Positions 7,711-7,804 of a DNA stretch of 9,104 bases are shown one piece after another. The notes beneath the pieces were generated by a model. It saw only the letters and a program-made list of their open reading frames with translations. It did no database searches and was not told the DNA's origin. Made by a program: the position numbers and the translations under genes. The stretch is from a virus (taxonomy: Monodnaviria; Loebvirae; Hofneiviricota; Faserviricetes; Tubulavirales), in the IMG/VR virus record IMGVR_UViG_2667527591_000001, one strand, 5' to 3'. Positions within the stretch are counted from its first letter, which is position 1, and every line of letters starts with the position of its first letter.

Positions 7711-7804
7711 AGTGCGCACAATGACGTTATGTATAAAAAGGCCGCTGCGGTGGAGAGTATCGCAGCGGCCTTTTCAACATAACGCGTGTCACATTATGCG
7801 CACT
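7711..7804. other. Candidate XerCD-type attachment site (attP): two inverted dif-like sequences flanking a hairpin
   Basis: Site 1 (plus strand 7711-7737): agtgcgcacaa-tgacg-ttatgtataaa. Site 2 (minus strand, complement of 7772-7804): agtgcgcataa-tgtgacacgcg-ttatgttgaaa. Against E. coli dif (GGTGCGCATAA-TGTATA-TTATGTTAAAT) site 2 matches 10/11 and 9/11 in the two arms. The two sites can pair in ssDNA (10/11 and 9/11 bp) leaving an unpaired central region. Confidence 0.55.
7735..7774. terminator. GC-rich hairpin with flanking A5/T4 tracts; bidirectional intrinsic terminator candidate and apex of the putative attP fold
   Basis: Stem ggccgctgcg (7740-7749) pairs with cgcagcggcc (7761-7770); 11-nt loop; aaaaa upstream and tttt downstream. 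It lies 84 bp downstream of the secretin stop on the minus strand and about 280 bp downstream of the regulator gene on the plus strand. Confidence 0.6.

What the first reader, a model, noticed from the sequence alone, without database searches (positions are those of the whole stretch)
7711..7804. Pair of inverted dif-like sites that can fold into a forked hairpin: candidate ssDNA attP for XerCD-mediated integration
Two dif-like sequences sit in inverted orientation on either side of a GC-rich stem-loop. The XerC-like arms (7711-7721 with 7794-7804) and XerD-like arms (7727-7737 with 7772-7782) are mutually complementary, while the central regions (5 nt versus 11 nt) are not. This is the architecture described for the folded (+)ssDNA attP of CTXphi. 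The window has no integrase gene, so integration by host XerC/XerD at dif is the simplest explanation. Both arms are intact and lie between pIV and rep, which suggests this copy is a replicative form or a tandem copy rather than a single integrated prophage.
Basis: partly seen in the sequence, partly recalled or inferred. Interest (0 to 1): 0.75.

Follow-up and report, generated by a model that had tools for sequence, protein, structure and literature searches.

The report
CTX-type folded attP in E. coli inovirus
This is the attachment site of an E. coli filamentous phage: two inverted dif-like sites that fold into a hairpin on the phage single strand and let the host XerC/XerD enzymes insert the phage at the chromosome's dif site. 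The mechanism is already known from cholera phage CTXphi and was predicted for E. coli phage CUS-1.

Summary
Window 7709-7806 holds two inverted dif-like sites flanking a GC stem-loop. One is AGTGCGCATAA-TGTGACACGCG-TTATGTTGAAA on the minus strand; the other is AGTGCGCACAA-TGACG-TTATGTATAAA on the plus strand.

- **Fold:** the coding strand (window minus strand, the inferred packaged strand) folds into a 94-nt bulged hairpin at -40.2 kcal/mol, z = -10.5.
- **Conservation:** across 17 distinct homologous hairpins, 96% of pair cells are paired. Thirteen pairs show compensatory changes, and G·T wobbles occur almost only on the coding strand.
- **Junctions:** in E. coli strain 100416 the same phage sits as a tandem pair at dif. 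One end has the dif XerC arm fused to the phage central region. The other end is a regenerated dif carrying the phage XerC arm.
- **No integrase:** none is encoded. A sister phage about 94% identical lacks this 738-bp segment, carries an IS110 transposase gene instead and sits away from dif.

The hairpin is about 84% identical to that of CUS-1 in UTI89, already classed as CTX-type, although the two phage backbones differ. Verdict: a new member of a known kind, well explained and of modest interest. Single-strand use and XerC-only catalysis are inferred, not shown.

The parts
7709..7806 (-). Whole folded attachment site, attP(+): a 94-98-nt bulged hairpin on the coding (inferred packaged) strand
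   Evidence: DNA fold -40.2 kcal/mol, z = -10.5. The structure is kept when the full intergenic region is folded. Consensus structure of 17 homologues has 34 pairs, 13 of them compensatory.
7794..7804 (-). XerC-binding arm of the long-spacer site (equivalent of CTXphi attP1): AGTGCGCATAA. This is the top strand of the hairpin, and the inferred XerC cleavage point is at its 3' end.
   Evidence: Matches 10 of 11 positions of the dif XerC arm. At the host-proximal junction of the integrated phage it is replaced by the dif arm GGTGCGCATAA. At the distal end it is retained in front of the dif central region.
7783..7793 (-). 11-nt central region of the top strand, TGTGACACGCG. The first three bases (TGT) equal the first three of the dif central region TGTATA. 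TGACAC is bulged; TG and GCG pair with the short central region.
   Evidence: Covariation at alignment columns 12-13:94-95 and 21-24:89-91.
7772..7782 (-). XerD-binding arm of the long-spacer site: TTATGTTGAAA
   Evidence: Matches 9 of 11 positions of the dif XerD arm. It pairs with 7727-7738 through one bulged base and one G·T.
7736..7774 (.). GC-rich stem (7736-7749 with 7761-7774) and 11-nt loop forming the hairpin tip. On the coding strand it is followed by a T run, so it may also terminate the pIV transcript.
   Evidence: 14-nt perfect inverted repeat. The stem covaries among homologues. The terminator scan did not flag it because its loop limit is 8 nt; the terminator role is inference.
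7711..7737 (+). Short-spacer dif-like site (equivalent of CTXphi attP2): AGTGCGCACAA | TGACG | TTATGTATAAA. Its complement is the bottom strand of the hairpin.
   Evidence: It is retained intact next to hipA in the integrated form.
7120..7857 (.). Lysogeny/integration segment. It holds the hairpin, a 76-aa ORF (7462-7692, - strand), a 62-aa ORF (7270-7458, + strand) and the 5' end of rep. In a sister phage about 94% identical it is absent, and an IS110 transposase gene lies immediately upstream of rep instead.
   Evidence: blastn of the window against L193 shows homology at 1018-2308, 3063-7119 and 7858-9102 only. The L193 annotation shows the IS110 gene upstream of rep and insertion between yoaA and yoaB.
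7858..9066 (-). pIV secretin gene, immediately upstream of the hairpin on the coding strand
   Evidence: Pfam Secretin, E = 9e-25.
5122..7221 (-). Rolling-circle replication initiator (Phage_GPA family), downstream of the hairpin
   Evidence: Pfam PF05840, E = 9e-49. PHROG 91, 'nicking at origin of replication'.

Best explanation
Window 7709-7806 is the attachment site of an integrase-less E. coli filamentous phage. It most likely works like attP(+) of CTXphi.

1. The two inverted dif-like sites on the packaged (+) strand (the window's - strand) anneal. This forms one XerC-binding duplex and one XerD-binding duplex, separated by a partly unpaired central region.
2. Host XerC and XerD bind this hairpin and pair it with chromosomal dif.
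3. XerC cuts the top strand after AGTGCGCATAA and swaps it with the dif top strand. The shared TGT next to the cut stabilises the swap.
4. There is no homology on the XerD side, so the reaction stops at a pseudo-Holliday junction, and replication turns it into an integrated prophage.
5. The product has the dif XerC arm fused to the double site at one end and a regenerated, functional dif at the other end. A further copy can enter there, giving tandem arrays.
6. Once double-stranded, neither site has a usable spacer (11 bp and 5 bp). Integration should therefore be irreversible, with phage made by rolling-circle replication from tandem copies.

Shown here: the sequence architecture, the fold, its conservation and covariation, the strand bias, integration at dif, the junction structure, and the absence of an integrase. 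Inferred: the single strand as substrate, XerC-only catalysis, resolution by replication, and irreversibility.
For: **Architecture and fold.** Two inverted dif-like sites flank a GC stem-loop, and the - strand folds at z = -10.5.

**Spacers match CTXphi.** The 11-nt and 5-nt spacers parallel CTXphi attP1 (12 nt, TGTGGCGCGGCA) and attP2 (5-7 nt) (PMC3089051 table II; PMC4246890).

**Junctions.** In E. coli 100416 the phage is a two-copy tandem between the ydeQ/ydeR fimbrial genes and hipA.
- The hipA-side junction reads GGTGCGCATAA|TGTGACACGCG..., with the dif arm identified by its G at position 1.
- The far junction reads AGTGCGCATAA|TGTATA TTATGTTAAAT, that is, the phage arm followed by the dif central region and XerD arm.
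- The internal junction is identical to the window's site apart from one substitution in the GC stem.
- The crossover therefore lies between XerC-arm position 2 and central position 3. This interval contains the XerC cleavage point and excludes the XerD one.
- An independent pair agrees. L053 (free or tandem form) has GGTACGCATAA on top, while L056 (integrated form) has GGTGCGCATAA on top and keeps the phage-specific bottom arm.

**Selection for pairing.** In 17 distinct hairpins, 96.0% of pair cells are paired, against 85.5% in shuffles (0 of 500 shuffles as high) and 30-54% when partners are slid. Thirteen pairs carry compensatory changes, several of them outside the Xer arms.

**Strand bias.**
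- 33 G·T cells in 10 columns against 2 A·C cells.
- The coding-strand fold is more stable in 16 of 17 hairpins.
- The long-spacer site lies on the coding strand in 17 of 17 loci that carry the hairpin and have recognisable phage genes.

**No recombinase.** None was found in the window.

**Natural swap.** A backbone about 94% identical that lacks 7120-7857 carries an IS110 transposase gene and is not at dif. More distant relatives show the same arrangement.

**Tracking of the host dif.** A Xenorhabdus relative has XerC arms of the host type (GGTTCGCATAA). Its top central region starts TCT, like the host dif TCTATA at the prophage's far end.

**Prior work.** The first proof of principle for CTXphi single-strand integration came from in vivo work done in E. 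coli and in vitro work with the E. coli Xer recombinases (PMC3089051).
Against: - Nothing here distinguishes single-stranded from double-stranded substrate by the products. Exchange at the XerC side of the long-spacer site in the replicative form would give the same junctions.
- The case for the fold rests on covariation, strand bias, and the fact that 11-bp and 5-bp spacers lie outside the 6-8 bp of known Xer sites.
- The covariation set is ascertained with a pattern that fixed the XerD arms. Those columns carry no weight, and many sequences in the set are close relatives.
- XerC-arm covariation could partly reflect both sites tracking the host dif.
- The rule that the first central bases match the host dif has exceptions. 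The integrated copies L112 and L077 start TAG against TGTAGA and TGTATA.
- The packaged strand is inferred from gene orientation and was not measured.
Confidence: 0.85

Rival explanations
1. Double-stranded, VGJphi-like integration. The long-spacer site alone (7772-7804), in the replicative form, recombines with dif through XerC. The inverted short-spacer site is a bystander or relic.
For: The junctions are equally well produced by this route. The nearest Rep relatives among deposited phages (fs2 and VFJ, about 29% identity) belong to a group listed as VGJ-type (PMC4246890).
Against: - An 11-bp spacer lies outside the 6-8 bp of known Xer substrates (established knowledge; VGJphi attP is a single 29-bp site, PMC4246890).
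- The inverted partner is conserved at a fixed geometry in every homologue.
- Compensatory changes occur outside the Xer arms, and G·T wobbles fall on the coding strand only.
- The long-spacer site is always on the coding strand. A double-stranded substrate would not need this.
Confidence: 0.08
2. The hairpin is chiefly a phage housekeeping structure in the pIV-rep intergenic region: a packaging signal, a minus-strand origin or the pIV terminator. On this view its similarity to dif is secondary.
For: - It lies directly after pIV on the coding strand, where Ff phages carry their packaging-signal/terminator hairpin (established knowledge of f1/M13).
- It is the only long hairpin in the intergenic fold.
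- The GC stem is followed by a T run.
Against: - The crossover with dif maps inside it, so an attachment function is demonstrated whatever else it does.
- The sister phage with the IS110 module lacks the whole segment yet keeps all morphogenesis genes. The hairpin is therefore not indispensable for this backbone, unless that prophage is defective.
- This remains possible as an additional role.
Confidence: 0.05
3. Chance or non-functional palindrome with no biological role.
For: The XerD-arm motif alone is not enriched in the window.
Against: - Fold z = -10.5 with 0 of 200 shuffles as good.
- The XerC-arm motif is enriched.
- The structure is conserved and covaries in many phages and hosts.
- The junctions lie at dif.
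Confidence: 0.01

Closest known systems
attP(+) of Vibrio cholerae phage CTXphi (attP1/attP2 forked hairpin; Val et al. 2005, as summarised in PMC3089051 and PMC4246890)
   Same: - Two inverted dif-like sites between the last structural or accessory gene and the replication module.
- One long spacer (12 nt against 11 nt here, both starting TGTG) and one short spacer (5-7 nt against 5 nt here).
- Homology to dif only on the XerC side of the central region.
- No integrase.
- Integration at dif gives a regenerated dif at one end and both attP remnants at the other.
- Tandem arrays.
   Different: - Different host and dif (XerC arm ...CGCATAA against ...CGTATTA).
- The inter-site distance is about 34 nt, forming a simple GC stem-loop, against about 90 nt and a 150-nt forked structure.
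- Here the central region is predicted to be a 5-bp duplex with a 6-nt bulge.
- The phage encodes its own pIV secretin and a 699-aa GPA-type Rep.
- No experiments exist for this phage.
CUS-1phi (E. coli O18:K1:H7) and Ypfphi (Yersinia pestis) attachment sites, classed as CTX-type (PMC4246890 table 2; PMC4266046; PMC3089051)
   Same: - The hairpin is homologous. The UTI89 copy reads GGTGCGCATAA TGTACGACTCG TTATGTTGAAA - AGGCCGCTGCG...CGCAGCGGCCT - CTTTAGCATAA CGTCA TTGTGCGAACC. It is about 84% identical to the window over 92 nt and has the same 11/5-nt spacers.
- It has the same position next to hipA, with dif regenerated at the far end.
   Different: - The phage backbone is different. The CUS-1 Rep is annotated as a II/X-family replication protein of about 350 aa, and none of the window's Rep, Zot or pIII proteins found a tblastn match in other carriers of near-identical hairpins.
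- The window phage also has a 339-bp tandem repeat between zot and pIV.
- The CUS-1 and Ypfphi sites were themselves only predicted, not tested, in the papers I could read.
Integron attC sites (folded single-strand substrates of a tyrosine recombinase)
   Same: The recombination site exists only as a folded single strand with extrahelical bases. One strand exchange is followed by resolution through replication (PMC3089051 makes the comparison).
   Different: Integrons use a dedicated integrase (IntI) rather than host XerCD, have unrelated sequence, and target attI or attC rather than dif.
Ff (f1/M13) hairpin A: packaging signal and terminator after gene IV
   Same: An imperfect long hairpin on the (+) strand immediately downstream of the secretin gene, at the start of the intergenic region.
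   Different: Ff hairpin A has no dif-like arms, and Ff phages do not integrate. A packaging role for the window's hairpin is untested.

Membership tests
CTX-type IMEX attachment site (folded ssDNA attP) | Two dif-like XerC/XerD sites in inverted orientation in the phage genome | tested here: met
   7711-7737 on the + strand and 7804-7772 on the - strand.
CTX-type IMEX attachment site (folded ssDNA attP) | Neither site is a usable double-stranded Xer substrate (spacer too long, or incompatible) | tested here: met
   Spacers of 11 nt and 5 nt are read directly. That 6-8 bp is required is established knowledge and was not tested here.
CTX-type IMEX attachment site (folded ssDNA attP) | The (+) strand folds so that the two sites form one XerC duplex and one XerD duplex | tested here: met
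   Fold and in wider context. Covariation and controls. Strand bias. These are computational only, and the identity of the packaged strand is inferred from gene orientation.
CTX-type IMEX attachment site (folded ssDNA attP) | Central-region homology with host dif on the XerC side only | tested here: met
   Top strand TGTGACACGCG against dif TGTATA: the first 3 nt are identical and the XerD side is unrelated. The Xenorhabdus relative has TCT against a host dif TCTATA. Exceptions exist in other hosts.
CTX-type IMEX attachment site (folded ssDNA attP) | Integration at dif gives one regenerated dif and both attP remnants at the other end | tested here: met
   L001 junctions. The same layout is seen for CUS-1 in UTI89.
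CTX-type IMEX attachment site (folded ssDNA attP) | No element-encoded integrase | tested here: met
   Pfam and PHROGs scans of the larger ORFs and of those flanking the hairpin. The only ORFs over 180 aa are Zot, pIII, Rep, pIV and an antisense ORF inside rep that has no hits.
CTX-type IMEX attachment site (folded ssDNA attP) | XerC catalysis suffices, XerD catalysis is dispensable, and replication resolves the junction | not testable with these tools
   Needs genetics or biochemistry.
CTX-type IMEX attachment site (folded ssDNA attP) | Irreversible integration, with virions produced from tandem prophages | tested here: inconclusive
   Tandem arrays are present, and the window equals one tandem unit. 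Excision or its absence cannot be assessed.
VGJ-type IMEX | A single double-stranded dif-like attP with a roughly 7-bp central region | tested here: not met
   Two inverted sites with spacers of 11 and 5 nt.
TLC-type IMEX | Degenerate XerD arm, XerD-first exchange and a Xer activation factor (XafT) | tested here: not met
   Both XerD arms are dif-like (8-9 of 11). The crossover maps to the XerC side. No extra domain protein was found, but no XafT-specific search was done.

The most novel reading that the evidence does not exclude
The hairpin may be a portable, multifunctional single-strand cassette rather than only an attachment site. It could serve at once as attP, as the terminator of the pIV transcript and as the packaging signal, because it occupies the exact position of Ff hairpin A and is the only long hairpin in the intergenic region. 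As a cassette it moves between unrelated inovirus backbones and is exchanged against IS110-type recombinase modules. If so, lysogeny at dif and virion packaging would be physically coupled in one DNA structure.
Probability: 0.15. Interest if true: 0.55.

Novelty: new member of a known kind. Interest (0 to 1): 0.3.

Why it matters
- **Confirmation from sequence alone.** It shows, with junctions and covariation, that CTXphi-style single-strand hijacking of XerCD operates in a further E. coli inovirus lineage. This lineage is found in 106 of 5,426 complete E. coli genomes, many of them from human stool.
- **A shared module.** Essentially the same hairpin is carried by unrelated filamentous phages in Enterobacterales and Pasteurellales. 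This helps prophage annotation, because these elements have no integrase, lie at dif and form tandem copies that collapse in assemblies.
- **A natural comparison.** The same phage backbone occurs with either a Xer hairpin or an IS110 recombinase, which allows the two lysogeny strategies to be compared directly.
- **No change to the mechanism.** The finding does not alter what is understood about how this kind of integration works.

Tried and rejected
- **Deposited phage genomes.** Megablast of the whole window and blastn of the hairpin found nothing.
- **Peptide-pattern scan of species-representative genomes with Rep.** No true relative was found.
- **Protein look-up.** P0021 (Morganella) is not on record.
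- **Relatives without the double site.** The Providencia relative L027 has no dif-like double site near rep. L015 and L016 have no hairpin within their contigs.
- **Literature.** Gonzalez et al. 2002 (CUS-1) is not held, so I read the CUS-1 site from UTI89 instead. Searches of the held library found no description of this GPA-Rep E. coli inovirus.
- **Rfam.** Only sub-threshold generic hairpin matches.
- **Terminator scan.** It did not flag the GC stem because its loop limit is 8 nt.
- **A rule I dropped.** I considered a strict rule that the first three central bases equal those of the host dif, and rejected it as general. It holds for E. coli and for one Xenorhabdus prophage but not for L112, L077 or the second hairpins.
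- **TLC-type and VGJ-type membership.** Both were considered and rejected; see the membership test.

Full report
**What is in the sequence.** The window's large ORFs all lie on the minus strand: the pIV secretin (9066-7858), a 699-aa Phage_GPA-type Rep (7221-5122), a pIII-like coat protein (4039-2675), a pVI-sized ORF, and Zot/pI (2299-1088). This is an inovirus. By the rule that filamentous phages package the coding strand (established knowledge), the minus strand is the (+) strand.

Between pIV and rep, the plus strand reads AGTGCGCACAA-TGACG-TTATGTATAAA (7711-7737). The minus strand reads AGTGCGCATAA-TGTGACACGCG-TTATGTTGAAA (7804-7772). A perfect 14-nt GC-rich inverted repeat lies between them. 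Both sites resemble E. coli dif, GGTGCGCATAA-TGTATA-TTATGTTAAAT.

**More than chance.** The XerC-arm motif is enriched in the window: 4 found against 0.72 expected, and two of the four form this pair. The XerD arm alone is not enriched. As single-stranded DNA the minus strand folds at -40.2 kcal/mol (z = -10.5) and the plus strand at -36.8 kcal/mol (z = -8.5). The same hairpin dominates the fold of the whole 636-nt intergenic region.

The predicted structure, from the base to the tip, is:
- 13 bp: the XerC arm plus TG:CA;
- a 6-nt bulge (TGACAC) on the top strand;
- 3 bp, followed by the XerD arm with one bulged base and one G·T;
- the GC stem with an 11-nt loop.

**Where the phage sits.** The window matches 106 of 5,426 complete E. 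coli genomes. In strain 100416 two copies lie head to tail between the ydeQ/ydeR fimbrial genes and hipA, the E. coli dif locus.
- The hipA-side end is the full double site, but with GGTGCGCATAA (the dif arm) in front of TGTGACACGCG.
- The other end is AGTGCGCATAA-TGTATA-TTATGTTAAAT, that is, the phage arm followed by the dif central region and XerD arm.
- The internal junction matches the window's site except for one base in the GC stem.

The crossover therefore falls between XerC-arm position 2 and central position 3. This interval contains the XerC cleavage point and excludes the XerD one. This is the product pattern described for CTXphi (PMC3089051, PMC4246890).

The window begins and ends 38 nt upstream of the pIV start and has no terminal overlap.

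**Evidence that the fold itself is selected.** A pattern scan for the two XerD arms retrieved many homologous double sites from viral contigs and species genomes. Hosts include E. coli, Enterobacter, Scandinavium, Xenorhabdus, Haemophilus, Actinobacillus and Rodentibacter.

Seventeen distinct hairpins align with a consensus of 34 pairs, 13 of them with compensatory changes.
- Pair cells are 96.0% paired, against 85.5 ± 0.9% in shuffles (0 of 500 as high) and 30-54% when the partners are slid.
- The covariation score is 0.317 against 0.122.
- Several covarying pairs lie outside the Xer arms, in the central-region flanks and the stem, so they cannot be explained by both sites merely tracking the host dif.
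- G·T wobbles (33 cells in 10 columns) far outnumber A·C (2 cells).
- The coding-strand fold is the more stable one in 16 of 17 hairpins.
- The long-spacer site is on the coding strand in all 17 loci that carry the hairpin and have recognisable phage genes.

Three caveats apply. The XerD-arm columns were fixed by the search pattern. Many of the sequences are related to each other. An RNA hairpin on the same strand would show the same bias.

**No integrase, and a natural swap.** Pfam and PHROGs find no recombinase in any ORF scanned. In strain E300082 a phage 90-96% identical over its aligned segments lacks exactly 7120-7857. It carries an IS110-family transposase gene directly upstream of rep and sits between yoaA and yoaB, not at dif.

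More distant Rep relatives (48-65% identity) in E. coli and Salmonella show the same IS110 arrangement at other chromosomal sites. A Xenorhabdus relative (45% identity) has a double site just upstream of rep. Its arms are of the host type, its top central region starts TCT, and the host dif GGTTCGCATAA-TCTATA-TTATGTTAAAT lies at the prophage's far end. Hairpin and recombinase gene are thus alternative occupants of one slot, and only hairpin carriers are found at dif.

**Comparison with what is known.** CTXphi attP1 and attP2 are AGTGCGTATTA-TGTGGCGCGGCA-TTATGTTGAGG and AATGCGTATTA-TACGCCA-TTATGTTACGG (PMC3089051). The window's sites have the same plan.

The same review, together with PMC4246890 and PMC4266046, states that CUS-1phi of E. 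coli and Ypfphi of Y. pestis have attP sites suited to single-strand integration. I read the CUS-1 site in UTI89. It lies next to hipA, has the same 11/5-nt spacers, a near-identical GC stem and about 84% identity to the window over 92 nt. dif is regenerated at the far end.

The CUS-1 backbone differs from the window's: its Rep is annotated as II/X-family. Other carriers of near-identical hairpins share no detectable Rep, Zot or pIII with the window. The closest deposited phages by Rep are fs2 and VFJ at about 29% identity. No deposited phage matches the window or its hairpin. I found no paper on this lineage in the held library.

**Verdict.** The site is a new member of a known kind, a CTX-type attachment site homologous to that of CUS-1/Ypfphi but on a different, undescribed E. 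coli inovirus backbone.

Single-strand use and XerC-only catalysis remain inferences. A double-stranded route through the long-spacer site is the main rival (about 0.08). An added packaging or terminator role cannot be excluded. Interest is modest at 0.3. The more unusual material lies in the side observations: the module swap with IS110, the second non-recombining hairpins, and the plasmid fossils.

Noticed in passing
window 1-1074: A 339-bp unit is repeated 3.2 times at 99% identity between zot and pIV. Each unit carries short ORFs on both strands with no Pfam or PHROG hits. The repeat region is about 365 bp shorter in strain 100416, roughly one unit. It is absent from the IS110 variant. Function unknown.
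   Followed up: partly
L193 (NZ_CM128602.1) 9828-10793; also L018-L026: Sister inoviruses carry an IS110-family (DEDD) transposase gene directly upstream of rep, in place of window 7120-7857. They sit at non-dif loci such as yoaA/yoaB, ymdA/csgC and a T6SS cluster. IS110 recombinases are RNA-guided, so the target choice of these phages may be programmable. I did not look for a guide RNA.
   Followed up: partly
L192 12001-12096 and 2636-2730; L013 4927-5020; also L052 and L067: Some E. coli inoviruses carry a second forked dif-like hairpin 52-91 nt upstream of the recombining one. It has the same 11/5-nt architecture and compensatory arm changes, but its central region starts GAT or GGT. It stays intact beside the regenerated dif, so it is not the crossover site. 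GGTATA is the central region of V. cholerae difG (PMC3089051). It could be an alternative-host attP, a Xer decoy or a packaging signal.
   Followed up: partly
L191 (plasmid NZ_CP049102.1) about 3001-3069; 484 plasmid places in all: Half of a CUS-1-like hairpin (GC stem-loop plus short-spacer site) is fossilised on many large E. coli plasmids. It lies beside a truncated IS200 tnpA and an STM4504-family gene, near macB/tolC-like genes.
   Followed up: partly
L105 5350-7790; L112 (minus strand) 5357-7921: In Actinobacillus vicugnae and Haemophilus parahaemolyticus only about 2.4 kb separates the forked hairpin from the dif-like site. This suggests miniature or satellite Xer-exploiting elements, or decayed prophages.
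   Followed up: no
window 7189-7232: A short palindromic and tandem motif (TGCACAAATGCAATTG, 2.2 copies) overlaps the rep start codon and is conserved in L015 at 1240-1273. It could be an operator or part of the origin.
   Followed up: no
window 3171-3422: 39- and 78-nt tandem repeats lie inside the pIII-like gene. I did not translate or examine them.
   Followed up: no
L028 1-9700: In Xenorhabdus griffiniae a second, IS-disrupted inovirus (Rep_trans type) lies upstream of the GPA-type prophage at dif. It has its own double site, whose bottom XerC arm is degenerate. This is an example of a heterologous array at dif.
   Followed up: no
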